A DNA stretch of 64,000 bases from Patescibacteria group bacterium (GCA_022710775.1 JAKLGH010000001.1:69824-133823), one strand, 5' to 3'. Shown: positions 1,249 to 64,000, counted from the stretch's first letter. The notes: generated by a model not told the origin, from the sequence alone. Translations and numbers: made by a program.

Positions 1249-1345
1249 TGGTGTTGATTAAGCTTGGCCAAAGCGATTCTGCTCTGTCCAATCGATTGAG
1301 CGGTACTGGATTTTACCTTTTGCGCGTCAAAAAGTTTAAAAAATA

Positions 1346-1538
1346 GAATTTATATTTTGCATTGGTATTTCGCCTCCCGGGGTACGAACCCCCGGCGGTG
1401 ACCGAAGGAAATCCCGAAGCATTGAGGGGCGACCAGAGGATGTTTCCTCCGGACTCCTCATTTCTGCGCGCTTTTTGCGGGCAGGAAGCCTAAGGCTTCA
1501 TTTTGTTCCCAAGACTTGCCCGGGGTTTATAAATTAAT
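1346..1538 (-). repeat. GC-rich structured intergenic element, copy A (long form), proximal to the gyrB start
   Basis: Near-identical to 1656..1849 and 23847..24040. Starts (plus strand) with the A/T box GAATTTATATTTT followed by ATTTCGCCTCCCGGGGTACGAACCCCCGG and ends CCCGGGGTTTATAAATTAAT. Orientation is given relative to the downstream minus-strand gene. Boundaries +/-5 nt. Confidence 0.9.
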
Positions 1539-1655
1539 CAAAACCTAAACCAAGAAAAACATAATTAATATGTTTTCTTGAACGCACCGCTGTCCAAGAT
1601 CTGTAAAAATCCTCTTTGATTGATTTTAGCTCAAAATCAAAAACAAGTAAATATC

Positions 1656-1849
1656 GAATTTATATTTTTCTATCGGTATTTCGCCTCCCGGGGTACGAAC
1701 CCCCGGCGGTGACCGAAGGAAATCCCGAAGCATTGAGGGGCGACCAGAGGATGTTTCCTCCGGACTCCTCATTTCTGCGCGCTTTTTGCGGGCAGGAAGC
1801 CTAAGGCTTCATTTTGTTCCCAGGACTTGCCCGGGGTCTACAAATTAAT
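1656..1849 (-). repeat. GC-rich structured intergenic element, copy B (long form), in tandem with copy A
   Basis: Essentially identical to copy C (23847..24040) over ~190 nt. Separated from copy A by a 117-nt AT-rich spacer containing two AT hairpins (about 1551..1580 and 1617..1641). Confidence 0.9.
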
Positions 1850-5422: not shown

Positions 5423-5441
5423 GGTTGATGCGTTTATAATT

Positions 5442-6812
5442 TTACTGCCCCTCGATGGCCGCGATGTCGTCAGCGTACCCGGCGGCGATGGCGCACACGT
5501 TGTCGCCGTAGAAGCGGTATTTGGTATTCACAGATCCGGCAAAATAGATCATGGCCGACCGCCATTCGCCATTGTAGGTTTGTGAAGCAGCGCCATAATC
5601 CGATACATAGAGACCGGCAGCCATAAAAGCATCGCGAATATTCCAAGGATCGGCCGGATGACCGGTTATCGCCTTAACCCGGTCGCGATAACCTACCCAA
5701 GTCGCCGGAATAAACTGAGCCGGACCCATAGCGCCTCCCCAGCCAAAGCTCATGGGACAGGAAACCTGCGTCGCGTAAGGGTCGCGTCCTACTTCGGCGG
5801 TTATAGATAAGAACGGCTGAACGTCGCGGTTAGGATTCATCACTTTCGCCAGCGAAGCGCCGGTCCTTATGTTTATGCCCGCCCCCGTTGCGCTGTTCTT
5901 TAAGTAGCACTGGCCGACATTTTTCCCGATATTCGACTCCTGAGTCAGAATAGCCAGCAAAAAGGCCGGTCGGACGCCGACAGTCGCGCCTACCGTTTTG
6001 GCAATGGCATAAGCCTCGGCAAAGTTAGGCGCTTTGGTATTGCCTAATCCGGCCATCTCAAAAATACGGCTTTTGATCTGGGCAACTTTCGCGGCGGTCG
6101 CCTTTTTGTCACTGAGAGATTTTTGGTACTGCGCCTCGGTCATTCTTAAAGTCTGCTCCTGCTCTTTTTTAGTCGTTTCATGCTCCTGCTTTTCCAACAG
6201 CTGGACTTGCACCTGCTTTTCCAGATCTCCTTTCTCATCCTGAAGGCCTAATTTCTGGTCCTCTAAATAGGCTTTCATGTTTTTAATCTCGTTCAGCAAA
6301 TCATCGGAACTCTTGTTTAAGTTTTCCAAATAAACGATATTGTCAAAAAAGTCGGATAGCTCGTCCTCAGCCAAAACTAATTCGGCCAGCGATTTCTTGT
6401 CTTCTTCGTCAACGGTTCTCAATATCGCGGCTAAATTGATTTGCGCTTGCGCGATTCGCTCGCTCGTATCCTGAACAGATTTCTCCGTATCGTTAATCTG
6501 GAGCTTAAGATCGGAGATTACGGCGTTGCTCTGCTTGATCTTCACCGACAGATTCTCGGCTCTTTTTTTAAGGTAGGCAATCTGGCTTTGGAGCGTTTTC
6601 TTCTGGGCCGAAGTCTTTTGAATATCAAGCTCGTCTAAAGCAAGCTGCGCTTCGTATTTTCTCAATAGGATCTCGCAAGCCTCGCGTGTCGCGCAATTTT
6701 CTTCGCTGGCCGGCAAATTCAAAGTGCTTTGCCCGATAACCGGCGCCGTTATAGAAAAAATCAAAAAAATCGCGGGTAACCAGAAAAATGCTTTTTTTGA
6801 AACGAAGCTCAT
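5442..6812 (-). CDS. secreted coiled-coil protein with a C-terminal lytic-transglycosylase-like (SLT/MltB-like) domain
   Basis: N-terminal signal/TM segment (FFWLPAIFLIFSITAPVIG). A coiled-coil region of about 230 aa. The C-terminal region AFLLAILTQESNIGKNVGQCY...SCPMSFGWGGAMGPAQFIPATW resembles the catalytic-Glu region of lytic murein transglycosylases. Confidence 0.6.
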   Translation of the reverse strand: MSFVSKKAFFWLPAIFLIFSITAPVIGQSTLNLPASEENCATREACEILLRKYEAQLALDELDIQKTSAQKKTLQSQIAYLKKRAENLSVKIKQSNAVISDLKLQINDTEKSVQDTSERIAQAQINLAAILRTVDEEDKKSLAELVLAEDELSDFFDNIVYLENLNKSSDDLLNEIKNMKAYLEDQKLGLQDEKGDLEKQVQVQLLEKQEHETTKKEQEQTLRMTEAQYQKSLSDKKATAAKVAQIKSRIFEMAGLGNTKAPNFAEAYAIAKTVGATVGVRPAFLLAILTQESNIGKNVGQCYLKNSATGAGINIRTGASLAKVMNPNRDVQPFLSITAEVGRDPYATQVSCPMSFGWGGAMGPAQFIPATWVGYRDRVKAITGHPADPWNIRDAFMAAGLYVSDYGAASQTYNGEWRSAMIYFAGSVNTKYRFYGDNVCAIAAGYADDIAAIEGQ

Positions 6813-6896
6813 AGTCGGTCTATAATTTACCGCCGCATTTGCGGCTATGTGAATTTACTTTTTACTAATAAGGTTAATCCGAAATGAAAAGATAAT

Positions 6897-7556
6897 CTAT
6901 TTTTTTTCCTCTGATTCAAGTTCTTCTTCCTTCTTTTCCTTTTCGATCTTTTCAACCTCATCAACTTTCTCTTCGATCGGCTTTTCAAGCTCTTCTTCCA
7001 CCTTTTCAACCGGAATAACCAAAGCTATAATTTCTTCCGGATTTTTGACGGCTTTGACGCCCTCCGGCAACACCAGATCTTTTACCAAAATCACTTTTTC
7101 GAAGTCGGTAAGAACATCGATATTCACGTTAATCTGGCTCGGCAAGCGCTGGGGCATTCCCTTAACCGTAATTTCGGAGATATTTTTAACCAAGGTACCT
7201 CCGCTTTCCTTTACCGCCTTTGATTCTCCTTCGAAAACCAGCTCGACTTCGGCCTCGATCTCCTTCGTTAGATCGGGCTGGTATAGATCAACGTGCATCA
7301 ACTTTTCCGTGACGCCATTCCGGTCGATGTCACTGATCAAAACCATATATTTCTCCTTGGAACCTTCAATCTCAAGACTGACCAACGAACTCTGCCCGGC
7401 CATAGAGAGAATTTTTTCTATTTCCTTTCGGTCAACCGACAAATTCAGGTTTTTTAGACCAGGTCCGTACAACACGGCAGGAACGATTCCAACTTCCCTT
7501 AATTCCTCCACTTTTTTTCCGCTTTCTGTTCTGATTTTTGATGTTAATTTAAGCAT
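6897..7556 (-). CDS. rplY: 50S ribosomal protein L25 / general stress protein Ctc form
   Basis: MLKLTSKIRTESGKKVEELREVGIVPAVLYGPG..NLSVD is the L25/Ctc N-terminus, and the tail is acidic. The track ORF extends to 7631; the ATG at 7556 (MLKLTSK) fits the family start better. Confidence 0.85.
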   Translation of the reverse strand: MLKLTSKIRTESGKKVEELREVGIVPAVLYGPGLKNLNLSVDRKEIEKILSMAGQSSLVSLEIEGSKEKYMVLISDIDRNGVTEKLMHVDLYQPDLTKEIEAEVELVFEGESKAVKESGGTLVKNISEITVKGMPQRLPSQINVNIDVLTDFEKVILVKDLVLPEGVKAVKNPEEIIALVIPVEKVEEELEKPIEEKVDEVEKIEKEKKEEELESEEKK

Positions 7557-7637
7557 ATTTTTTCTTATACCATGAAGTACAAACCAAATCAACCCATGGA
7601 GCCGGCCCACATCAGTAAATAACCTTGCCAAAAAACT

Positions 7638-8066
7638 TTATTCAACCTCAAAAGAATTGGAATAAAAAACTTTATCTTCTTTAAAAGAGTCTCCGATCTT
7701 ACAATCAACGCAAGCGCCGATATTTATTCGGTTAATCCCGGTTTCGACTTCGTCGAGCGTGATCTTAAATTTTTTAGTCTCGCTTTTCCCGAGGCAAATA
7801 TCGACAACATCAGTATCCGAGCAGCTATCGTATTCGTAAGATTTCCATTCAGTTTCCCTTTTCTCAACCCGATATGGATAACAGGATGAAAAACATACCG
7901 TGCGGCCATAATTATTCTTAATGCTTACCACCTGGGTATCTCCGGGAGCGTATATTTTTTTATCGGTTCTTATTTCAACGCTCCCGGATTTTCCCAAAAA
8001 AACAGCCAAACCAAGGACGGATATCAGCGCGGCACCTATTAAGATATGAATATAGATGTTTTTCAT
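7638..8066 (-). CDS. hypothetical small secreted or membrane-anchored Cys-rich protein
   Basis: 142-aa ORF with an N-terminal hydrophobic segment (IHILIGAALISVLGLAVFLG) and 7 Cys. No family recognised. Confidence 0.45.
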   Translation of the reverse strand: MKNIYIHILIGAALISVLGLAVFLGKSGSVEIRTDKKIYAPGDTQVVSIKNNYGRTVCFSSCYPYRVEKRETEWKSYEYDSCSDTDVVDICLGKSETKKFKITLDEVETGINRINIGACVDCKIGDSFKEDKVFYSNSFEVE

Positions 8067-8076
8067 TGAAGAAACG

Positions 8077-9180
8077 CTATTTCTCCCTGATAGTAAATTT
8101 CTTTTCCAAGCTCTTTAACGTATCCATCACGCCGGTATACTCCAGTTCGCTCATCGGAAGCATCGCCGGCCCGGAGAAACCTTGCCTTCTGATCCATTCG
8201 GCTTTTTGCGAGACATTATTACGGACGTAATCCCAATAAGGATGGTCGAACGCGTCGGCCGGTTCGGTCAGCTTGCCGTTTTGGACGCAGAAAGCCATGC
8301 AGGAAATAATCGGCGGCCCATCAAAATAAGAAATGCATGAATTTCTCTTTACCGGCATCATTGGACCGTTATGAGAACCTCTCATAAAACCCGCCACATA
8401 ATGTCCGATCGTGTAAGGAGACAATATCTCTCCTGTCGCCGGAAAATCCTTTTGAGTGCGGACCAGCATGACCGGATCGTCTTTACCGACGTATTTTCCC
8501 GCCACATTGTGCAATCGCGTGGTTGAAGCAGCGACAACCTGCTCTCCGGATGCCCGCGACCAAACCGATTCCACGATATACTTCCCATTGTCTCTAAGCA
8601 AAACGGCAATATCGTATATCTCCTCGGGTGATTGCAGCTCGATCACTTTATCCTTGCCGGTATGCTCAACATCCATGATCACGAATTTATAACCCTTTTT
8701 CACAGCCGGAGACAATAACAACCCGGCGTTGTGCATCGGATCGCAAAATCCCAGGTATAGCGGCAGGTTGAACGCACCCGGCTCGGTTTTATCGGCACAA
8801 AACATCAAAAAAGACTCAGCTCCCCGTTCCTCGATATCCATCTCAGCTACCTGGGGCCCCATGCCTTTGATATTTCCCGAGAAAGCGTCAACCAGCAAAT
8901 CCTGGCCGGCTCCGTATAATCCCTGTTTTTTAGCCATGTCCGCGCCGGCGTATAAGGCATCGTAACACAATTTATGAATATCCTTGTTTCCGGCGCCTTT
9001 TTTGTGAGTCAGTAATATTGCTATATCGTCTCCGGTAAATTCCACAAAACTATCGATAAACAGTGTTTTTCCGAATTTTTTTACGTGCCCCTCCACCGCA
9101 TCGAATACCTTCTGGCTTGGCTTAATATGGCCGCCAATTGATCCGATATCTGCTTTAATTATACTTAAGGTTACTTTCAT
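8077..9180 (-). CDS. fbp: bifunctional fructose-1,6-bisphosphate aldolase/phosphatase (class V, archaeal-type FBPase)
   Basis: The N-terminus MKVTLSIIKADIGSIGGHIKPS matches the characteristic start of class V FBPase/aldolase. Length is ~367 aa. GPMMPV and DPMHNAGLLLSP regions are present. Confidence 0.88.
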   Translation of the reverse strand: MKVTLSIIKADIGSIGGHIKPSQKVFDAVEGHVKKFGKTLFIDSFVEFTGDDIAILLTHKKGAGNKDIHKLCYDALYAGADMAKKQGLYGAGQDLLVDAFSGNIKGMGPQVAEMDIEERGAESFLMFCADKTEPGAFNLPLYLGFCDPMHNAGLLLSPAVKKGYKFVIMDVEHTGKDKVIELQSPEEIYDIAVLLRDNGKYIVESVWSRASGEQVVAASTTRLHNVAGKYVGKDDPVMLVRTQKDFPATGEILSPYTIGHYVAGFMRGSHNGPMMPVKRNSCISYFDGPPIISCMAFCVQNGKLTEPADAFDHPYWDYVRNNVSQKAEWIRRQGFSGPAMLPMSELEYTGVMDTLKSLEKKFTIREK

Positions 9181-9267
9181 TATTGTACGCTCGCCGCTAC
9201 AAATGGCGCGTTTTCCGCCCCATAAATCACGGCGACGCTGTTAATTTATTTGCCGTATATGTTTATT

Positions 9268-20121: not shown

Positions 20122-23100
20122 TTAAATCGGTTCATTATACGGACTCTGCGGGGTTTTTGATTGCGATTTCGGTTGCGCCGCCGTTTGTTTTTCTTCGACT
20201 GCTTTCAGCCGCTGGACCTTAACCGGATCATTTGAACCCACTACCAGCACCTTCCACAAAAACGGGTCAATCTCAATAATATCGTAGCGTTTGATTTCCT
20301 TGGAAAGCAATGCATTGGCCACCAGATTTTCCACGTTGTTCTGAACCGCCCGCCTCATTGCCCGGCCGCCGAACGCCGGATCAAACCCCAGGTCTCCAAG
20401 CTTCTCGATCAGCTTCTGGCTGATCCTGAACTCAATATCCTTCACGGCCAAGCCTTTCTTTATATCGGCAACCATCAATTGCGCAACCTGCTTCATTTCT
20501 TCTTTATCAAGAGGCCGGTAAAGAACAACTGCGTCAAAGCGGTTTAGGAATTCCGGCTTAAACAATTCGCGCCTAAGCAAATTGTCGATGAATGTTTCCT
20601 TGAAAGCGGCATTCAGCTTGCTGCCCCGGTCCACAGCCTCCTTGATATATTCCGCTCCGGCATTCGATGTGGCAATCATAATGGTTTTTTTGAAATCAAC
20701 TTTCCGGCCCGAACCGTCAGCCATCTCGCCATCGTCAAAAATGCTCAAAAACAGGTTTAAAATATTGGGATGCGCCTTCTCGATCTCGTCGATCAAGATC
20801 AGAGACTGGGGATTCTCCATTACCTGGGTTGTGAAATATCCGGGCGAATTGAGATTGCCGATCAGCTTATCGATCGAATCCATAAGCTGGTACTCGGCCA
20901 TATTGAGCCTGATCATATTCTTCTCCGAACCAAAGTAAACCTTGGCCAGCTGCTTGGCGGTTTCGGTTTTGCCGATACCGGTCGGACCGAGGAACAGGAA
21001 ATTACCGATCGTCCGCTTGCTGGTCTTAATGTCTGCCTGTGCGCGCCTTAAGGCGTTGCAAAGTTCGCTTACCGCCTCTTTCTGGTTGATCAACCCCTGG
21101 TGGATGGTATCTTCCAAATGCATCAGGCGATCCGCTTCGGCATCCTGCTCTTTTTGGTCTCCAATGAATGTTCCTTTCTTCTTTTCGTGGTAAGTGTCTC
21201 GTTCTCCGGGAGGTATAAGTTTCCATTCCGCCGGATCAATTTCAATCACATCGCCCGCTTTAACGGTTCCGGCAAGCACGGCTGTGGCGATAATGTTTTC
21301 CACGTTGTTCTGAACAGCCCGGCGCATGGCCCGGCCGCCGAACGCCGGATCAAAACCCTCGTCGGCCAGCTTGCTGAGCAATTCCGGCGTAATGGCCAGT
21401 TCCATGTTCTTCTCGCGCAGCCCAGCGCGAATATCCTTTAACATCAGTTCGGCTACTTGCTGCATCTCTTCCTTGTTAAGAGGCCGGTAAAGCACCACCG
21501 CATCGAAACGGTTGACGAATTCCGGGCGGAAAACGTTCTTTCTTAATAAATTATCAATGAAAACATCTTTAAAATTGGTAAGCTTGGAACCGCGTTCAAC
21601 CGCCTCTCGAATGTAATCCGCGCCCGCATTGGATGTGGCAATGATAATAGAGTGGCGGAAATCAACTTTCCGGCCCGAACCGTCCACCAGCTCTCCGTCA
21701 TCCAGAATACTCAAAAAAAGGTTAAGCAAATTGGGATGCGCCTTCTCGATCTCGTCGATCAGCAGCAGGCAGAACGGATTTTCCCTGATCGCCGTTGTCA
21801 GATATCCCGGCTGGGTGAGCGACCCGATAAGTTTATCGATCGATTCCAAAAGCTGGTACTCGGCCATATTAAGCCTGATCATATTTTTGTCGGAACCGAA
21901 ATAAACCTTGGCCAGCTGCTTGGCAGTTTCGGTCTTGCCGACGCCCGAAGGCCCCAAGAACAGGAAGTTGCCGATAGTACGCTTTCGTTTTTTTAAATCC
22001 GCCCGGGCGCGCCGCATGGCGTTAGCCAATTCCGAAACCGCTTCTTTCTGGTTGATCAATCCTTGGTGTATCAGATTTTCCATGTTGAGCAGCGTTTCCT
22101 TTTCTTTCTGCGCCGCTGATCCGGCCGGCACCTCGTATTTAGCCGAAAAGAACAGATCGATCTCTTCGGGCAAGATCACGCCTCTAGCCTTGGTAGAACG
22201 GGTCCGTTCGTAAACCATCACGTCATCGAGCAAATCTACGGCCTTCTTGGGAAAAGAAATATCGCCGATGAAATAATCACAGAGCTTGATGATCTCCTGA
22301 AGGCTCAATAAAGGCGCGAAGACGCCGGTCCGAGATTCCCGCCAGACAACCTCTTCCTCCAAAATATGAAGCGTTTCATCAAGACTCGGGCTGGGAACCT
22401 CGATCTTGGCAAAATTACTCGCTACATCCCGATTGGTCTCAATGGATTTATGGTATCCGTCGAAAGAGGTGATTCCGATCAGCCGGAAACCCGGCGTCGT
22501 CAAATACTGGGAAAGAATCCCCGTTATATCAATCTTGGCTACCGCTTCGGCCCCGAAAGATTCACCGACGTAATTATGCATCTGCGGTATGACCAGAATG
22601 ACGTTCTGCGCTTTGATCGCCTCGTTAAAAACTTTTTTTAACCTCACTTCCAACATGCGCTTATCCCCCGCGCTGCCGATCAGAGACGGCATATCAATCT
22701 CTAAAATCCTCATGTACGACAGCTCGCGGAAGCTCATATTCTTCAAGATCTTCTTTGCAAAATTGAAAAGCACGCTTTTCCGTCCGGAACCAACCTCTCC
22801 AACCAAAAGCAGGCAATTGCTATTTTGTTTGATCAAGGTTTCCTCGATATCCTTCACCTGTTTTTCGTGAAGAACAACTCGGCTCCAAAACAAGGGATTG
22901 CGGACCGAAAGATCGCGAGAATACTGGTTTAGGGTCAGGGTATAGCCGCCGACAAGCTCCTGAACCGGGCTCGTCTGGAAGTATAGGCATAAATTCTCCC
23001 GCTCCCAGTATCTGCTCTTTTTCTCTCTGTCAACTCCCAGATTATACATCCACAGCACCGTCTCGATCACATCGTTTCTGACAATTTCCAGCGAATCGAG

Positions 23101-23796
23101 CTCCTTATGAAAAAACGGCTCTTCTTCGAGCAAACTTAACAATAAAGCATAAATATTGATTTTCGGAAAACCGTTATCAACGGCGACCTGCCGCGCGCGC
23201 GACAGCACCGCCTCAATCGCCCTGGTATTATCCTCCTGCAAGATCACAGCTTCCTCGCGGGATCGGGCTTGGGGCTGGGTTTTAGCGTAAGCCAGAAGAT
23301 CTTGCTCGAAGTCTGATTTTTTAATGTAAAGCCGGTTAAAAATAAACAGCAAGCGGCTGCCTTTCAAAAGCATGGATAAAAGCATTAATTTAAAAGGCAA
23401 AGCGCTTTTAGCCAAAGTTGCTTTGATCAACTGGGCCGCCTCGAAATCAAGATAATTCAGCAGGTTTTCCCGCTCGCTCATATTCTCATGAAGAAGCGGC
23501 CCCACCTTCTTCAATTTTTTCTCGACAAAACCAATAACAAGCCAGGAAGAACCCCAAAAGAAAAAAGATAAATAAACCACGGCTAGCAAAAGGTCGCTAG
23601 TAATCTTAGGCAAGGTGATTTTAGCCAGAATCGACGGTAAAAACGCTTTAATAGCTTCCAGTCCGCCAAACATCAACAAAGACAAAATCAACAACACATA
23701 CGCCAAAGGCTTGACGGTTTTAAAAACCCGCAACGGGATCAATTTGGCGTAATCAACCATTTTGAAAGTAAATGCGGATTTTTGATTGAATGCCAT
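20122..23796 (-). CDS. membrane-anchored Clp/Hsp100-family AAA+ ATPase with a degenerate D1 and two tandem D2 modules
   Basis: 1224 aa. Residues ~27-95 are hydrophobic (TM). Clp_N-like repeats are present (ALLLSLLEEEP). In D1 the Walker A is degenerate (GEVGSGRKS) and Walker B is replaced (VILVIPQMH). Two D2 modules of ~287 aa follow (residues ~575-861 and ~897-1184). Each has GPxGxGKTE, LLIDEIEKAHP, SNAG and GGRAMRR motifs. They are offset by exactly 322 aa (966 nt). Confidence 0.85.
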   Translation of the reverse strand: MAFNQKSAFTFKMVDYAKLIPLRVFKTVKPLAYVLLILSLLMFGGLEAIKAFLPSILAKITLPKITSDLLLAVVYLSFFFWGSSWLVIGFVEKKLKKVGPLLHENMSERENLLNYLDFEAAQLIKATLAKSALPFKLMLLSMLLKGSRLLFIFNRLYIKKSDFEQDLLAYAKTQPQARSREEAVILQEDNTRAIEAVLSRARQVAVDNGFPKINIYALLLSLLEEEPFFHKELDSLEIVRNDVIETVLWMYNLGVDREKKSRYWERENLCLYFQTSPVQELVGGYTLTLNQYSRDLSVRNPLFWSRVVLHEKQVKDIEETLIKQNSNCLLLVGEVGSGRKSVLFNFAKKILKNMSFRELSYMRILEIDMPSLIGSAGDKRMLEVRLKKVFNEAIKAQNVILVIPQMHNYVGESFGAEAVAKIDITGILSQYLTTPGFRLIGITSFDGYHKSIETNRDVASNFAKIEVPSPSLDETLHILEEEVVWRESRTGVFAPLLSLQEIIKLCDYFIGDISFPKKAVDLLDDVMVYERTRSTKARGVILPEEIDLFFSAKYEVPAGSAAQKEKETLLNMENLIHQGLINQKEAVSELANAMRRARADLKKRKRTIGNFLFLGPSGVGKTETAKQLAKVYFGSDKNMIRLNMAEYQLLESIDKLIGSLTQPGYLTTAIRENPFCLLLIDEIEKAHPNLLNLFLSILDDGELVDGSGRKVDFRHSIIIATSNAGADYIREAVERGSKLTNFKDVFIDNLLRKNVFRPEFVNRFDAVVLYRPLNKEEMQQVAELMLKDIRAGLREKNMELAITPELLSKLADEGFDPAFGGRAMRRAVQNNVENIIATAVLAGTVKAGDVIEIDPAEWKLIPPGERDTYHEKKKGTFIGDQKEQDAEADRLMHLEDTIHQGLINQKEAVSELCNALRRAQADIKTSKRTIGNFLFLGPTGIGKTETAKQLAKVYFGSEKNMIRLNMAEYQLMDSIDKLIGNLNSPGYFTTQVMENPQSLILIDEIEKAHPNILNLFLSIFDDGEMADGSGRKVDFKKTIMIATSNAGAEYIKEAVDRGSKLNAAFKETFIDNLLRRELFKPEFLNRFDAVVLYRPLDKEEMKQVAQLMVADIKKGLAVKDIEFRISQKLIEKLGDLGFDPAFGGRAMRRAVQNNVENLVANALLSKEIKRYDIIEIDPFLWKVLVVGSNDPVKVQRLKAVEEKQTAAQPKSQSKTPQSPYNEPI

Positions 23797-23846
23797 GTGG
23801 TTAAAATATTAAATCTGCCGCAACGGGTTCGCCTCGTTTTAGAATC

Positions 23847-24040
23847 GAATATATATTTTTCTATCGGTATTTCGCCTCCCGGGGTACGAACCCCCGGCGG
23901 TGACCGAAGGAAATCCCGAAGCATTGAGGGGCGACCAGAGGATGTTTCCTCCGGACTCCTCATTTCTGCGCGCTTTTTGCGGGCAGGAAGCCTAAGGCTT
24001 CATTTTGTTCCCAGGACTTGCCCGGGGTCTACAAATTAAT
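23847..24040 (-). repeat. GC-rich structured intergenic element, copy C (long form), 5' of the Hsp100-like gene
   Basis: Essentially identical to copy B. It begins 10 nt after the stop of the upstream (minus-strand) gene at 24051. It ends ~50 nt before the ATG at 23796. Confidence 0.9.
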
Positions 24041-24050
24041 AAATTATCGC

Positions 24051-27219: not shown

Positions 27220-27338
27220 ACCGGCCTGCCCGTTATTGGCCGCAGATTAATTAATAATATTCCCGCAATCCCTATTCGTCAATATGCAAAAACAACCCGC
27301 GTCGATCGGGCTGTTTTTAATTTCGTCGGATTCTTACC

Positions 27339-27521: not shown

Positions 27522-27682
27522 AAATTTGTGATTATTATTTTACGTTTTACCCTTCTTCAGCTTAGCAAGTATTAGCTAAAAAATAAATATGGAAACCCGC
27601 TGTTGAATAAACTACCCCGGGACAGAGCCCCGCGGCATTCCTTCCGCTGCGCTTCGCTTCGCAAAAGGAAAAGCTTGTTTAA

Positions 27683-30684: not shown

Positions 30685-30687
30685 ATT

Positions 30688-30803
30688 GAATTTATATTTT
30701 TCATAGGAATTTCGCCTCCCGGGGTAAGAACCCTGGGGCGGCGACCAAAGGATGTTTCCTTTGGAATCCTCATTAATTTGTTCCCCGGAGTCCACAAATT
30801 AAT
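30688..30803 (-). repeat. GC-rich structured intergenic element, copy D (short deletion variant), 5' of trxB
   Basis: Shares both ends and the core with the long copies: GAATTTATATTTTTCATAGGAATTTCGCCTCCCGGGGTA..GATGTTTCCT..CACAAATTAAT. It lacks three internal segments. It fills the whole gap between the nnrD-like stop (30803) and the trxB ATG (30684). Confidence 0.85.
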
Positions 30804-42250: not shown

Positions 42251-42334
42251 GATTTTTTGTTTATGTTTTCATTATAGTGTTTTTTATTAATTTGTTAACT
42301 GCCTCCGATGCGCCGCAAACGATAAAAAAAGAAG

Positions 42335-59809: not shown

Positions 59810-59880
59810 CAGAGACCGGGACTCTGCTGGCTTCTGGTCTCTGTTGGCTTTTTGGGTGGCGTAATTTTGGAGCAGAATAA

Positions 59881-60721
59881 ATCTACAAAAGTAGAAATTG
59901 AATATGCCTATTAGAGTTGTTAAGTGATAGGTATAACAAGTAATCTACAAAAGTAGAAATTGAATATGCCTATTAGAGAAAGAAGAACTAAAAAGATTAC
60001 AATATCTACAAAAGTAGAAATTGAATATGCCTATTAGAGTTTTAGTGCTATTGATGGTTTTTCTATCTACAAAAGTAGAAATTGAATATGCCTATTAGAG
60101 TTTTTAATTCTTTTAAGATGTCTTCATCTACAAAAGTAGAAATTGAATATGCCTATTAGAGAACAGACAAATCGCCAATATTATCTTATCTACAAAAGTA
60201 GAAATTGAATATGCCTATTAGAGTTTACCGGAATCAGGACCCCTCGTTTATCTACAAAAGTAGAAATTGAATATGCCTATTAGAGTGCCAAGAGTCCGGG
60301 CAATCATCTGATCTACAAAAGTAGAAATTGAATATGCCTATTAGAGTTAAAAATTTTTTGAAATATCAGTACAATCTACAAAAGTAGAAATTGAATATGC
60401 CTATTAGAGAAACTGGCGCTCGGAATTCTATGAGATCTACAAAAGTAGAAATTGAATATGCCTATTAGAGTCCCATAAAGGCAATCGGCTGTCGTATATC
60501 TACAAAAGTAGAAATTGAATATGCCTATTAGAGCTTTCGTTAGATGATCAATACTATCAATATCTACAAAAGTAGAAATTGAATATGCCTATTAGAGACC
60601 GCCTTGTCATAAAAACATACGTTATCTACAAAAGTAGAAATTGAATATGCCTATTAGAGTCGCCTACTTGCTATGGCTGATATACATCTACAAAAGTAGA
60701 AATTGAATATGCCTATTAGAG
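59881..60721 (-). CRISPR. CRISPR array: 14 identical 36-nt repeats and 13 spacers of 25-28 nt, Cas12a-type repeat
   Basis: Plus-strand repeat is ATCTACAAAAGTAGAAATTGAATATGCCTATTAGAG. Repeat starts are 59881, 59943, 60004, 60065, 60126, 60188, 60250, 60311, 60374, 60435, 60498, 60562, 60624, 60686. The reverse complement CTCTAATAGGCATATTCAATTTCTACTTTTGTAGAT ends in the Cas12a handle, so transcription runs on the minus strand, as for the cas genes. Confidence 0.97.
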
Positions 60722-60852
60722 AGCTGATCGGATCGTAATTAGCTTTAAAGATGCGATTATTGAATAAAATTCAGATAACGACTTTAAGCTAATTACGACC
60801 GAAAAAAGCATAAAGACTAAGGTTTTTTCTAATAGATACATGGCAATTTCCA
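60722..60852 (-). promoter_or_regulatory. CRISPR leader (between cas2 and the first repeat), AT-rich with a long inverted repeat
   Basis: A 131-nt AT-rich region adjacent to the cas2-proximal repeat. The inverted repeat TCGTAATTAGCTTTAAAG (60733..60750) / ACTTTAAGCTAATTACGA (60781..60798) flanks a 30-nt AT-rich loop. Confidence 0.5.
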
Positions 60853-61196: not shown

Positions 61197-62171
61197 TTAA
61201 CCGTGGCTCGCTTGTTTTTTTTGCTTCAAAGAAAACTTCGGAAAATCCGAACCGTTCATCACGCAATAATAAAAATCCCGAACATAACAATAAATTTCTT
61301 CCCGATGATCCAAAATCGCCTGCGCAAATATCGCCAGATACTTTTCCTGGCGATCCCAGCCTAATTCCCGCTTTCCGGCTCTTTCCTTAAAATCATCTAC
61401 ATCAATTTGCCTAAGATGATAGGCCTTAACAATCGCTTTATCGATAATACAGCGAAAAGGCTCAATCAAATCGCAAACAAGCGATTTTCTCTGAAAAAAC
61501 AGCCGGTGATAAAACCCTTTATAAGAATCGAAGCCGTATATACCAACCATGCCGTCGATAAAATTGAATAACATGGTATACCCGATATCGAGCAAAACAT
61601 TGCTTACATCGGTTTTGGCTCGCGGCAAGCGGCGTTTCCACCCCATTTCTGAAAAATATTCCTGAAAGAAAAACTTGCTTGCTGACCCTTCAAGTCCCAG
61701 CAAATCATTGCCATTTTTTGCTTCCGCCACTTTTAATTTAATATCCTTAAGGCTTGCCGGGTTTTTGGTCATCTTTTGCTCCAACAGCAATCCAACCTGA
61801 TTATCAATTTTATTCGAAACAAGCTTCTTGGCCATTTCAAGCTCAGCTGCATTATCCCAAGAATATTGCTTTTCCCGCAATAAATAATTACCTTCGGCCG
61901 TCGAGATTATCCGGGCGTAGGCTAAAAAATTTCGGTTGCATAAAAATACGGAAACACCGCATTTTTTGCAATTTCTAACCATCACGCTGGTAAGCGAACA
62001 TTCTCCAATGATAAATACACAAAAAACCTTGTGGCAAGATATCTGGTTCTCGATCTTACCGTTCTTGCATAAACAAATATTGTCATTGGCAATCTTAATT
62101 TTGTCCACATCGATATTCCCGGCGCTCACGAACAATATTTGTTTTTCCCGAAAATCAGGCAGGCTCAGCAT
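61197..62171 (-). CDS. cas1: CRISPR-associated integrase Cas1
   Basis: LGLEGSASKFFFQEYF.., NVLLDIGYTMLFNFI.., GFYHRLFFQRKSLVCDLIEPFRCIID are Cas1 catalytic-domain motifs (E, H, D/E). Confidence 0.93.
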   Translation of the reverse strand: MLSLPDFREKQILFVSAGNIDVDKIKIANDNICLCKNGKIENQISCHKVFCVFIIGECSLTSVMVRNCKKCGVSVFLCNRNFLAYARIISTAEGNYLLREKQYSWDNAAELEMAKKLVSNKIDNQVGLLLEQKMTKNPASLKDIKLKVAEAKNGNDLLGLEGSASKFFFQEYFSEMGWKRRLPRAKTDVSNVLLDIGYTMLFNFIDGMVGIYGFDSYKGFYHRLFFQRKSLVCDLIEPFRCIIDKAIVKAYHLRQIDVDDFKERAGKRELGWDRQEKYLAIFAQAILDHREEIYCYVRDFYYCVMNGSDFPKFSLKQKKQASHG

Positions 62172-62175
62172 ATAA

Positions 62176-62715
62176 TTAGTGGCAAAGCGGCTGGTAAACG
62201 CATTGCAAGCATTTATTTTCGTTAACCGGCCGCGGAATTTCGGGCCGATATTTTTTCATTTTTTCGACAAGCGACAAAAAATGGTTCATTTCTTCCTCAT
62301 CGGGGATAGCTATCTTATAACGTTTATTGTCGGCCAATGATTGAATCGCCAGTGATTTAACCTCGTAACCCATTTCCCGCAAGCAAACCATTTGCGCGTA
62401 AAGCTGGTATTTATAACCGTCAAATATCGTTTTCACTTTGTACTTCCGTTCAACAAGCAACCCGCTTTTAATATCGAAAGTATCAATCTTTCCCATAATC
62501 CCCAGCCGTTCCGAGCAAACTTCCAATCCCTGCAAAACATTCTTAGCGGTCGTATAGGTTCTGTTGTCCACCGCTTCATGCGCAAGCCGTCCAACCGTCT
62601 GCGCCGTCCGATGATAGGTTTTAACGCTAAAATCATCATATACCGAGTGCAAATAGATCGAATAAGGGCAAAAAATAAAATCATTTATCTTGGAAATCTG
62701 TATATAGTCTTCCAT
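62176..62715 (-). CDS. cas4: CRISPR-associated exonuclease Cas4 (RecB-like, 4-Cys)
   Basis: The N-terminal Cys is in INDFIFCPYSIYLH. The nuclease core reads GKIDTFD..LVERKYK. The C-terminal cluster is CLQCVYQPLC. Its ATG overlaps the effector stop (TAATG at 62713..62717). Confidence 0.9.
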   Translation of the reverse strand: MEDYIQISKINDFIFCPYSIYLHSVYDDFSVKTYHRTAQTVGRLAHEAVDNRTYTTAKNVLQGLEVCSERLGIMGKIDTFDIKSGLLVERKYKVKTIFDGYKYQLYAQMVCLREMGYEVKSLAIQSLADNKRYKIAIPDEEEMNHFLSLVEKMKKYRPEIPRPVNENKCLQCVYQPLCH

Positions 62716-64000
62716 TAAACAGTTTTCTGCCTTATTTTAAGATTGTTCGCCATATAATCTACCCAATTTTTTTCTCCCGCAAGCCAAGCATCCCACTCTT
62801 CATTTCGCACAAACAAATCCGCGTTTCTTTTAATATGTTCGCTCATAATAATTCCCTTGCGGGCAATATTATACGCGCCGTTAGCATCGCCATTTTGCGG
62901 GAGTTTTGCACCATTTTTGATCTTACGAGAGTCAAAAAAGTCACCACTCGCACCCCTAACGGGAGAAAGAATAAAGTCGTTGTCTTTTTCATCTTCTCCG
63001 GTGTTGCGGATCTGTTGAATAACATCAATAACAAATCTTAAGCTTTCCCAAGCTGTTCGTTCTTTGTCGAATTTATTCAATTCTTTACCATCTTTAATCT
63101 GCTCTTTGAAAGATTTATTTTTATCAAATCCCTTAAAAATATTTTCTAAATTTTTAACGATATCAATTCTATCCGGGCTCCAATGCTTCTTACCCTCTTT
63201 TTCTGAAAATTTATCGCGATATCTATCCAATTCCGCACCATTTTTTCCGGAATATAAAATCCATTCTTTACCAATATTCGCGTCTTTATATTTGAAATAA
63301 TAATCCTTACCATCAAAACCAAAATCACTGAATAAATCAAAAATTTGCTCTTTAATTTCTGACCCCTTTTTAATAGATATTGTTTTGTGCCAGCCCGTAA
63401 TTGGATCAGTGGCTGAGGTAAAGCTTGGATTAGTATAAAACATAATCCCAAATTGCTTGCCTTTAATATCGTTAAAATCATGAACTGGCGGAGTAAACTG
63501 CAAGGCATTATCAACCGAAGCCATTTCCCCATCTTTAGCGCTTTTATCAACAAGAAAATTCAATTTTTTAGCCAAGGCAAGTTCAAGTTTTTGGTAAACC
63601 TGTTTTTCAATTTTCTGCCGCCCGCGCTTGAAGCCGATATTTAAATCCTCAAGAATAATAAGCGCGGGAGTTTCGCGAAAACCTTTTTTCCTGTCGCCCT
63701 CGTTGTAAACCGCCAAATCGACAATTTTTCTTACAACTTGCGAAATATATCCATCTTTTAAATCTTTTATATTGCCGATTGTCGTCCAATTTTTGCGCGC
63801 CAAGTCGCGATCGCCTTGTTTTATGTCCAACTTTTCCCAATAATTTTGCTTATTTATTATATTAAAACTACCCTGCTCTAAAATTTCTCCCCTTTGATTT
63901 ACAAGAGAATAGTAAGCAAGGTTTTTTTCGCCTCTGTCAATTCCGAGAAATAGCTGGTTTTTGGTTTCTACAATAACTTGATTCACTAAATCATTAATTC
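62715..64000 (-). CDS. cas12a: Cas12a (Cpf1)-like type V-A effector, C-terminal ~428 codons (5' part lies beyond the right edge of the window)
   Basis: The frame stays open to position 64000; the track M at 63986 is an internal GTG. RuvC-I is [17 protein letters not shown]. RuvC-II is [28 protein letters not shown]. The Nuc-region reads [17 protein letters not shown]. RuvC-III is [17 protein letters not shown]. It is collinear with FnCas12a (SIDRGERHLAYYTL / [26 protein letters not shown] / LISPVADVNGNFFDSR / QDADANGAYHIGLKG). No HNH domain lies between RuvC-II and RuvC-III. Confidence 0.93.
   Translation of the reverse strand, partial: [427 protein letters not shown]

What the first reader, a model, noticed from the sequence alone, without database searches (positions are those of the whole stretch)
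1346..1849. Unrecognised ~190-nt GC-rich, hairpin-rich intergenic element family; two tandem copies upstream of gyrB
Copies and placement:
- Four copies occur in the window, all in the same orientation: A 1346..1538, B 1656..1849, C 23847..24040, and the short D 30688..30803.
- Each fills the spacer immediately 5' of a minus-strand gene.

Sequence of the long form in gene orientation: AUUAAUUUGUAGACCCCGGGCAAGUCCUGGGAACAAAAUGAAGCCUUAGGCUUCCUGCCCGCAAAAAGCGCGCAGAAAUGAGGAGUCCGGAGGAAACAUCCUCUGGUCGCCCCUCAAUGCUUCGGGAUUUCCUUCGGUCACCGCCGGGGGUUCGUACCCCGGGAGGCGAAAUACCGAUAGAAAAAUAUAAAUUC.

Hairpins readable by eye:
- CCCGGG-CAAGU-CCUGGG
- GAAGCC-UUA-GGCUUC
- CUGC-C-CGC-AAAAA-GCG-C-GCAG
- CCGGAGGA-AACA-UCCUCUGG
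- A T-arm-like GGGG-GUUCGUA-CCCC
- UCGCC...GGCGA can close the 3' domain.

Other observations:
- In copy A the first hairpin carries CCUGGG>CUUGGG, which keeps pairing as G-U.
- The element ends in a conserved A/T box GAAAAAUAUAAAUUC.
- Upstream of gyrB, copies B and A are separated by a 117-nt spacer with two AT hairpins. One hairpin is followed by GUUUAGGUUUUG in gene orientation, so copy B might even be a separate transcript.

I do not recognise it as any riboswitch, tRNA, tmRNA, SRP, RNase P or 6S RNA.
Basis: seen in the sequence. Interest (0 to 1): 0.7.

Follow-up and report, generated by a model that had tools for sequence, protein, structure and literature searches.

The report
Mobile hairpin-rich repeat in CPR bacterium
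The GC-rich element upstream of gyrB is real, but it is one copy of a small, structured, mobile intergenic repeat family found in a group of ultra-small (CPR, Minisyncoccales) bacteria, not a regulator dedicated to gyrB.

Summary
Four copies lie in the window at the stated coordinates, to within 3 nt, all on the minus strand. A fifth lies 4 kb beyond the window start, upstream of gatB.

No Rfam family matches. I collected 21 distinct copies from related Minisyncoccales contigs, forming at least four subfamilies. They share one layout: 5' A/T box, hairpin P1, optional hairpin modules, hairpin P2, nested hairpins P3/P3a, 3' A/T box. Of 32 modelled pairs, 17 show compensatory changes, against 5.2 in shuffles.

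The link to gyrB, clp and trxB is incidental. In relatives with the same gene order (77-88% protein identity), these spacers hold no copy, whether short (4-77 nt) or long (before gyrB), and other spacers are filled instead. Empty-versus-filled comparisons place insertion immediately 3' of a TTGAT/TTTAT-like pentamer. There are no terminal inverted repeats and no clear target duplication. Copies also break assemblies and recombine with each other.

Best reading: a non-autonomous interspersed repeat, analogous to bcr1, BOX and ERIC elements. It is probably moved as single-stranded hairpin DNA (IS200/IS605- or REP-like) and carried passively in neighbouring transcripts. No transposase was found and no transcript data were available.

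Novelty: a new member of a known kind.

The parts
1343..1538 (-). Copy A (long form, 196 nt). It lies 93 nt upstream of the gyrB ATG and its left junction is TTGAT.
1653..1849 (-). Copy B (long form, 197 nt), downstream of tRNA-Thr and its terminator-like hairpin. Its left junction is TTAAT. The orthologous empty site in L040 reads TATTGAT|ATTTACTTG.
23844..24040 (-). Copy C (long form, 197 nt). It lies 47 nt upstream of the 1224-aa Clp-type ATPase gene. The site is empty in L023, L024, L035 and L037.
30685..30803 (-). Copy D (short form, 119 nt; P1 truncated; no M1, M2 or M3). It fills the whole spacer between the stop codon of the NAD(P)HX dehydratase gene and the trxB ATG.
1836..1849 (-). 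5' A/T box of copy B (AUUAAUUUGUAGAC), which contains a GTAG tag just before P1.
1819..1835 (-). Hairpin P1 of copy B (CCCGGG-CAAGU-CCUGGG).
   Evidence: Four pairs with changes on both sides across subfamilies.
1775..1810 (-). Optional hairpin modules M1 (GAAGCC-UUA-GGCUUC) and M2 (CUGCCCGC-A5-GCGCGCAG) of copy B. They are absent from the short forms.
   Evidence: Copy E has fully compensated versions.
1744..1774 (-). Conserved linker AAAUGAGGAGU plus hairpin P2 (CCGGAGGA-AACA-UCCUCUGG) of copy B. This is the most conserved core across all subfamilies.
1681..1743 (-). P3 (UCGCC...GGCGA) of copy B, enclosing the optional module M3 and hairpin P3a (CCGGGG-GUUCGUA-CCCCGG).
   Evidence: P3 has 3 pairs and P3a has 4 pairs with changes on both sides.
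1653..1670 (-). 3' A/T box of copy B (GAAAAAUAUAAAUUCGAU). In copies D, L003a and L012 this box directly abuts or overlaps the start codon of the next gene.
1539..1652 (-). Spacer between B and A. At least its first part is ancestral intergenic DNA: GATATTTACTTGT... is also present in relatives that lack the element.

Best explanation
This is a lineage-restricted family of small (119-226 nt), non-coding, non-autonomous interspersed repeats in Minisyncoccales (CPR/Patescibacteria) genomes.

Anatomy: each copy is a fixed series of GC-rich hairpins (P1, optional modules M1/M2/M3 and others, P2, P3/P3a). Short conserved linkers join them, and a 5' A/T box and a 3' A/T box frame them.

Shown:
- Copies are gained and lost at individual intergenic sites between closely related species.
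- They insert in one orientation, immediately 3' of a T-T-N-A-T pentamer (TTTAT, TTAAT, TTGAT, GTGAT).
- They have no terminal inverted repeats and no duplication beyond the shared (G)AT.
- Hairpin pairing is maintained by compensatory changes. Wobble pairs favour the gene-sense strand.
- Copies break assemblies and recombine with one another.

Inferred:
- Spread is by a hairpin-recognising, single-strand DNA mechanism of the HUH/Y1 type, as in IS200/IS605 elements and REP/RAYT. The enzyme would be supplied in trans.
- After insertion a copy is carried inside the transcripts of its neighbours. This is very likely for D, which fills an intercistronic spacer, unless D carries a terminator and promoter of its own. 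There the hairpins can alter mRNA processing or stability.
- The A/U-rich 3' box provides the Shine-Dalgarno-less start context that this genome uses everywhere. That is why copies can abut start codons without harm.

It is not a regulator specific to gyrB.
For: Copy number and spread:
- Multi-copy with high identity.
- 21 distinct copies in at least four subfamilies, from several metagenomes and one Minisyncoccales MAG. Three copies sit at that MAG's contig ends.
- A Logan contig begins exactly 33 nt before trxB, where a 31-mer first becomes unique. This shows a repeat-induced assembly break.

Presence and absence at orthologous sites:
- The carbK-trxB spacer is 13 nt in L023, 4 nt in L037, and 91 nt without an element in L024/L035.
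- The clp upstream region is 60-77 nt without an element in L023, L024, L035 and L037.
- The regions upstream of gyrB and gatB lack the element in L040 and L043.
- Conversely, L024 has a copy in a spacer that is empty in the window genome, L023, L037 and L035. L035 has a different copy 130 nt away.

Insertion sites:
- A precise empty site: L035 reads GTGATT|TTGGCG where L024 reads GTGATT[129 nt]TTGGCG.
- L040 reads TATTGAT|ATTTACTTG where the window has copy B ending ...TTCGAT|ATTTACTTG.
- Left junctions are TTTAT in 11 copies, TTAAT in 3, TTGAT in 1, [AG]TGAT in 2 and TCTAT in 1. The right end is TTCGAT in 12 of the 16 copies of the main, L012 and L024 types that keep it.

Structure:
- 93.5% of cells are paired.
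- 17 of 32 pairs change on both sides, against 5.2 +/- 1.7 in shuffles (0 of 500 reach it) and 3-8 in slid controls.
- GU/UG pairs outnumber AC/CA mismatches 22 to 10 on the gene-sense strand.

Other:
- A recombinant copy sits at a rearranged junction in strain L003.
- None of 35 gene starts in this genome has a Shine-Dalgarno motif.
- All five copies of this genome lie on the G-rich strand. That is the orientation expected for insertion into the lagging-strand template (PMC8612924, PMC6006769).
- Known parallels: ISDra2 inserts 3' of TTGAT without duplication and has subterminal hairpins (PMC2806898, PMC8612924). bcr1 has TTTAT borders, compensatory changes and a non-conserved distribution (PMC3184786, PMC6542083).
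Against: - No Y1/HUH transposase, RAYT, TnpB or any other transposase was seen among the called genes of about 250 kb of related loci.
- The junction repeats (TGATT in L024; an imperfect 9-mer in L035) could be short, variable target duplications, which a Y1 mechanism would not make.
- An HUH enzyme needs only the terminal hairpins. It does not explain why the internal P2/P3 hairpins and linkers are the best conserved parts. This hints at an RNA-level role.
- Transcription was not observed.
- Gene orientation and replication direction coincide here, so the orientation bias cannot be assigned to either.
- The covariation counts come from an alignment fitted to the model, and from few independent lineages.
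Confidence: 0.62

Rival explanations
1. Mobile cis-regulatory RNA module. The element is transcribed as a 5' leader. Its conserved linkers and P2/P3 core would bind one common factor (a protein, a ligand or the ribosome). Genes that have acquired a copy (gyrB, clp, trxB, gatB, polX) would then form a coordinately controlled, stress-type regulon.
For: - About 14 of 16 copies with assignable neighbours lie in the sense orientation directly before a gene. Three of them abut its ATG.
- The conserved nucleotides sit in linkers while loops vary, as in aptamers.
- Covariation is present.
- Several downstream genes are stress or repair genes.
Against: - The element is absent from the same spacers in relatives at 77-88% protein identity.
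- D lacks P1, and L005 lacks P3a.
- L005 has no co-oriented downstream gene, and L009x is reversed.
- The clp promoter-like region (TTTAAT...ACATG) is retained downstream of copy C, so C may not even be in the clp mRNA.
- A helix that would close a three-way junction is not supported.
- No Rfam family matches.
Confidence: 0.15
2. A multi-copy family of stand-alone small RNA genes. The 5' A/T box (TTATTAAT) would be the -10 element, and the RNA would act in trans.
For: - The 5' box resembles A/T hexamers found before other genes of this genome.
- A TTGGCA-N17-TATTTA arrangement precedes copy B (read by eye from the sequence).
- The L015 'v' copy is followed by a hairpin plus a T-run.
- The L005 copy stands between a divergent and a convergent gene.
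Against: - Most copies have no terminator.
- D, L003a and L012 run straight into a start codon.
- The terminator scan finds none after A, B or C on the sense strand.
- The pattern match for the 5' box is not above chance: 9 found against 5.4 expected.
Confidence: 0.1
3. An ORF-less IS200/IS605-type element (PATE) whose conserved RNA fold is a guide-RNA scaffold of the omega-RNA/reRNA type. A TnpB- or IscB-family protein encoded elsewhere would use it, and each copy would read its own 3' flank.
For: - The left flank is TTGAT-like, equivalent to a TAM.
- The RNA-level covariation extends over about 100 nt and ends at a conserved 3' terminus that touches variable flank.
- ISDra2 reRNA is about 150 nt, comes from the right end and has a 3' guide taken from the flank (PMC8612924).
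Against: - No tnpB, iscB or tnpA was seen in any locus.
- No Rfam HEARO or similar hit.
- The 3' terminal box is A/U-rich and unstructured.
- No sequence relation to any known scaffold could be tested.
Confidence: 0.08
4. Chance similarity or an assembly artefact.
For: None beyond the fact that repeats do break and mis-join assemblies.
Against: The same copies occur at the same places in independent assemblies from ENA, JGI, NCBI and Logan. E-values reach down to 1e-58.
Confidence: 0.01

Closest known systems
bcr1 and related bcr repeats of the Bacillus cereus group (Okstad 2004; Kristoffersen 2011; summarised in PMC3184786 and PMC6542083)
   Same: - Size is 100-400 bp.
- Lineage-specific and multi-copy.
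- Genomic distribution is not conserved between close relatives.
- A TTTAT pentamer lies at the borders.
- Base-pair compensatory changes maintain independent stem-loops.
- Intergenic location.
   Different: - No sequence similarity, and a different phylum.
- Here the right border is a conserved TTCGAT rather than a copy of the left TTTAT.
- The architecture is more modular.
- bcr1 is reported to be transcribed, whereas transcription is not shown here.
IS200/IS605-family elements and their ORF-less derivatives, such as ISDra2 and IS608 (PMC2806898, PMC8612924, PMC6006769)
   Same: - No terminal inverted repeats.
- No clear target duplication.
- Insertion 3' of a fixed pentamer: TTGAT in ISDra2, TTGAT/TTTAT-like here.
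- Hairpins near both ends.
- Orientation on the lagging-strand template.
   Different: - No tnpA or tnpB was found.
- The internal hairpins are conserved as well as the terminal ones.
- The target pentamer is looser.
GTAG-tagged REP/BIME elements mobilised by RAYTs (PMC3733652, PMC2817692)
   Same: - The 5' module of the main subfamily is a GTAG tag followed by a GC-rich palindrome.
- Hairpin modules are assembled in a mosaic.
- Location between co-directional genes.
   Different: - The unit that moves is the whole 120-230 nt series, not a 20-40 bp palindrome.
- The units are not in alternating orientation.
- GTAG is not kept in other subfamilies (GCAG, GTGG, TTAG, ATAG).
- No RAYT was seen.
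Pneumococcal BOX elements, enterobacterial ERIC and Neisseria Correia/REP2 repeats (PMC3184786)
   Same: - Small structured intergenic repeats.
- Modular, like BOX.
- Often 5' of genes.
- Some supply a promoter, a ribosome-binding site or an ATG context (REP2, Correia).
   Different: - ERIC and Correia have long terminal inverted repeats and a TA duplication. This family does not.

Membership tests
Any Rfam 15 family (riboswitch, tRNA, tmRNA, 6S, SRP, RNase P, ribozymes, HEARO) | A score at or above the family's gathering threshold | tested here: not met
   The only gathering-level hit in the window is tRNA at 1962-2033. In a permissive scan of 1250-1950 the best hits have E>=1.6. One of them is Hairpin-meta1 at 18.5 bits against a threshold of 40.
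Hairpin ribozyme | Two internal loops (A and B), each flanked by helices | tested here: not met
   The matched segment is the perfect hairpin P2, which has no internal loop.
Gene-specific cis-regulatory leader or riboswitch | Conserved association with orthologous genes across related species | tested here: not met
   The regions before gyrB, clp, trxB and gatB lack the element in relatives with the same gene order.
tRNA-like element | A conserved T-loop and an acceptor-like helix | tested here: not met
   The P3a loop sequence and length vary between copies. ARAGORN finds only tRNA-Thr in the related loci scanned.
Classical MITE (mobilised by a DDE transposase) | Terminal inverted repeats of roughly 10 bp or more | tested here: not met
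   The ends share only an 8-nt imperfect complement (AAUUUGUA/UAUAAAUU). It shows no covariation and is lost in L012.
Classical MITE (mobilised by a DDE transposase) | A target-site duplication of fixed length | tested here: inconclusive
   TGATT appears at both junctions in L024, but only AT is shared in most copies. The right end is the same TTCGAT whatever the left flank is.
Small non-autonomous interspersed repeat (general class) | Multi-copy, non-coding, with presence/absence differences at orthologous sites | tested here: met
   Reading frames through the element differ between copies (D against L012).
IS200/IS605-type element or PATE | Insertion 3' of a specific 4-5 nt motif, without duplication | tested here: met
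   Left junctions read T-T-N-A-T. The empty sites are GTGAT|T and TTGAT|A. The absence of duplication is consistent but not proven.
IS200/IS605-type element or PATE | Subterminal hairpins at both ends | tested here: met
   P1 starts about 15 nt from the left end. P3/P3a ends about 28-32 nt from the right end. Both covary.
IS200/IS605-type element or PATE | A cognate Y1 HUH transposase (TnpA) in the genome | not testable with these tools
   None was seen among the Pfam-annotated genes of about 250 kb of loci. No complete genome was accessible.
REP/BIME | A 20-40 bp palindrome with a GTAG tag, very high copy number and a RAYT gene | tested here: inconclusive
   GTAG plus P1 fits in the main subfamily only. 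Copy number per genome and the presence of a RAYT could not be determined.

The most novel reading that the evidence does not exclude
The conserved core (the AAUGAGGAGUCC linker, P2 and P3/P3a) is a functional RNA that the element carries with it. It could be a guide-RNA-like scaffold for a transposon-associated nuclease encoded elsewhere. Or it could be a portable binding module for one cellular factor. In the second case each insertion would wire a new gene (gyrB, clp, trxB, gatB, polX) into a common post-transcriptional circuit in bacteria that lack Shine-Dalgarno-based initiation.
Probability: 0.12. Interest if true: 0.8.

Novelty: new member of a known kind. Interest (0 to 1): 0.42.

Why it matters
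CPR/Patescibacteria genomes are very small and tightly packed, and I found no described family of interspersed structured repeats for them in the literature searched.

Practical uses:
- The family explains recurrent contig breaks and at least one rearrangement in Minisyncoccales assemblies.
- It gives a marker for strain-level and species-level comparison.
- It warns against annotating these GC-rich intergenic blocks as riboswitches or gene leaders.

If the proposed single-strand, TTGAT/TTTAT-directed route is right, a HUH-type enzyme or a new activity should exist in these genomes. The internal RNA-like core is better conserved than the ends, and that is the one feature that could hide a real function.

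Tried and rejected
- Rfam at gathering and permissive thresholds on the window, on the element and on the neighbouring locus: nothing.
- Hairpin-ribozyme resemblance (CCAGAGGAAACA): rejected, because P2 has no loop B.
- Hammerhead-like UGANGA/GAAA/GUC motifs read by eye: rejected, because U4 is not conserved (AAGGAGGA in L009).
- T-loop or tRNA-like reading: rejected.
- A helix closing a three-way junction (AGGA:UCCU): 62% paired and no covariation, so rejected.
- Pairing of the two A/T boxes: no covariation.
- Leader peptide or coding potential: ATGs and reading frames are not conserved between copies.
- Shine-Dalgarno sequestration or an RNA thermometer: this genome uses no Shine-Dalgarno motif at 35 of 35 starts.
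- The 3' box as a -10 element for leaderless mRNAs: the spacing fits D (TATAAA-6 nt-ATG, like rpmE) but is only 4 nt in L003a and L012. Left open.
- The first genome-collection pattern and two viral-collection scans found nothing.
- BLAST against plasmid and phage collections found nothing.
- A search for transposase genes around copies by Pfam found none (and the gene tables).
- The contig start 33 nt before trxB was considered as a transcript 5' end. It was rejected as a k=31 repeat break.

Full report
**Observation.** The region reads as the first stage described.
- Repeat finding gives three 204-nt copies, at 1342-1545, 1653-1856 and 23844-24047, plus shorter shared blocks at 30685-30774.
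- BLAST with copy B gives 96% identity for A, 99% for C, and three collinear blocks for D.
- A covariance model built from 13 copies scores A, B and C at 190-195 bits and D at 113 bits. With filters off it finds nothing else credible in the 64 kb.
- Rfam finds only a tRNA at 1962-2033; ARAGORN calls its orthologue in relatives tRNA-Thr.
- Both strands fold well (z about -4), as expected for a string of hairpins.

**Context.** The downstream genes are gyrB, a 1224-aa Clp-type ATPase and thioredoxin reductase.
- The same sequence recurs in independent anaerobic-digester assemblies.
- Homologues and a pattern hit place the organism in Minisyncoccales, within CPR/Patescibacteria.
- None of 35 gene starts in this genome has a Shine-Dalgarno motif. 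Start regions are A/U-rich.

**Family.**
- One metagenome scan and one genome scan with conserved 3' patterns, plus look-ups around homologous proteins, gave 21 distinct copies.
- A fifth copy (E) lies in the window's own genome, upstream of gatB, at L017:20832-21057.
- There are at least four subfamilies: the main type in long and short forms, a 'v' type in the MAG JBARNX01, an L024/L009x type and an L035 type.
- All share the order 5' A/T box, P1, AACAAA linker, optional hairpins, AAUGAGGAGUCC linker, P2, P3 enclosing P3a, A/U-rich tail.
- Whole hairpin modules are present or absent at fixed points. These are M1, M2 and M3, and a 28-nt insert in L011, L003b and E. D lacks most of P1, and L005 lacks P3a.

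**Structure.**
- On the model-guided alignment of 21 distinct copies, 93.5% of cells are paired.
- 17 of 32 pairs carry changes on both sides. Shuffles give 5.2 +/- 1.7 and none of 500 reaches 17. Slid controls give 3-8.
- Every hairpin covaries. Copy E alone rewrites M1 (GGAAACU/AGUUUCC) and M2 (CUU.../...AAG).
- L024 replaces P3a with an unrelated stem in the same place.
- Wobble pairs outnumber A-C mismatches 22 to 10 on the gene-sense strand.
- A helix closing a junction, and pairing of the two A/T boxes, are not supported.
- Caveat: the alignment was fitted to the model, and the independent lineages are few.

**Not a gene-specific leader.** Gene order around trxB and clp is kept in four relatives at 76-86% TrxB identity.
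- The carbK-trxB spacer is 13 nt in L023, 4 nt in L037, and 91 nt without an element in L024 and L035.
- The clp upstream region is 60-77 nt without an element.
- Around gyrB, relatives at 87-88% identity keep tRNA-Thr, gyrB, secE, nusG, rplK, tmk, deoC and gatB. They have no copy before gyrB or gatB.
- Conversely, L024 has a copy between a 394-aa gene and the glutamate-synthase-like gene. That spacer is empty in the window genome, L023 and L037, and L035 lacks L024's copy.
- L035 carries a different copy 130 nt further on.
- L005 stands between a divergent and a convergent gene. L009x is reversed, tail-to-tail with L009.

**Insertion sites.**
- L035 reads GTGATTTTGGCG where L024 reads GTGATT, then 129 nt, then TTGGCG. 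TGATT is present at both junctions.
- L040 reads TATTGAT|ATTTACTTG where the window has TTTAAT, then copy B ending TTCGAT, then ATTTACTTG. Copy A follows TTGAT.
- Over all copies the left junction is TTTAT (11), TTAAT (3), TTGAT (1), [AG]TGAT (2) or TCTAT (1).
- The right end is TTCGAT in 12 of the 16 copies of the main, L012 and L024 types that keep it, whatever the left flank is. So TTCGAT belongs to the element, and the left pentamer is a target preference.
- The ends share only an 8-nt imperfect complement.
- The two copies before gyrB are therefore separate insertions into one ancestral spacer.

**Consequences of repetition.**
- MAG contigs end inside copies.
- A 307-kb contig ends in copy B.
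- A Logan contig starts exactly where a 31-mer becomes unique.
- Strain L003 has a clp-proximal copy whose 5' half and upstream flank come from another locus.

**Mechanism.**
- Shown: it is a dispersed, site-polymorphic repeat with conserved hairpins.
- Inferred: it moves as single-stranded hairpin DNA. The supporting features are a TTGAT/TTTAT-like target, no inverted repeats, no clear duplication, hairpins near both ends, and all five copies lying on the G-rich strand. These match IS200/IS605 elements such as ISDra2 (PMC2806898, PMC8612924, PMC6006769) and recall GTAG-tagged REPs (PMC3733652).
- The closest described analogue in behaviour is bcr1 of the Bacillus cereus group (PMC3184786, PMC6542083).
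- Against this route: no transposase was found in about 250 kb of annotated loci, and the junction repeats could be short, variable duplications.
- The best conserved part is internal (the linker plus P2/P3), which an end-binding enzyme does not explain.
- D fills an intercistronic spacer, so it is very likely transcribed with its neighbours, unless it carries its own terminator and promoter. Any effect on mRNA stability or translation is conjecture.

**Verdict.** The family is real, structured and undescribed, but it is a mobile intergenic repeat of a known general kind, not a gyrB regulator.

Noticed in passing
window 59868-60722, with genes at 61197-63986 (minus strand): A type V-A CRISPR locus lies in a low-GC (35-38%) segment. 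It has 14 repeats whose reverse complement ends AATTTCTACTTTTGTAGAT. Next to it are cas1 (61197-62171), cas4 (62176-62715) and the C-terminal part of cas12a (62715-63986; RuvC_1 and NUC domains), which runs off the window end.
   Followed up: partly
L017:19190-19405, window 27602-27680 (minus strand) and L010:2480-2527: There is a second, unrelated GC-rich structured intergenic repeat ('family 2', ...CUGGCAGAAUACCCCG...GGAAUACCCCGGGGCUUUACCCGGGG...). A full copy lies between rplK and tmk of the same genome, a 3' half lies in the window, and a minimal copy follows the L010 element. It has no Rfam match.
   Followed up: partly
window, all gene starts (for example 1249, 23796, 30684): None of the 35 gene starts examined has a Shine-Dalgarno motif. 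Several have a TATAAT-like or TTTAAT hexamer 6-9 nt before the ATG (rpmE, rpsB, clp, gyrB). This suggests leaderless or near-leaderless mRNAs.
   Followed up: partly
window 20122-23796 (minus strand): The Clp-type ATPase is 1224 aa long. It contains an internal duplication (repeats at 20302-20914 and 21271-21880, 72-77% identical), giving two AAA_2 plus ClpB_D2-small modules. This architecture is kept in relatives, which are 1189-1223 aa.
   Followed up: no
L003:4196-4430 and its flanks: In one strain the copy before clp is a hybrid. Its 5' half, with a 28-nt insert, is of the L011 type, and its 3' half is copy C. The upstream gene is rpsT instead of the 129-aa gene. This indicates recombination between copies.
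   Followed up: partly
L020, L021 and L022 (corresponding to window about 5431-9245): Three samples give contigs of 3803-3815 nt with the same ends. They start 66 nt before the FBPase gene and end 11 nt after the SLT-domain gene. They look like assembled transcripts of one operon rather than genome contigs.
   Followed up: no
L042:5346-13055: In one relative, an integrated element replaces the tmk-deoC-gatB segment after rplK. It carries a weak RecT-like match, an FtsK/SpoIIIE gene, a DUF2828 gene and a ParB-methyltransferase gene.
   Followed up: no
window 42284-42294 (plus strand) and 27243-27253 (minus strand): Isolated matches to the 5' box (TTATTAATTTG and TAATTAATCTG) lie in intergenic DNA without the rest of the element. 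The second is 20 nt before a gene start. The motif count is not above chance.
   Followed up: partly
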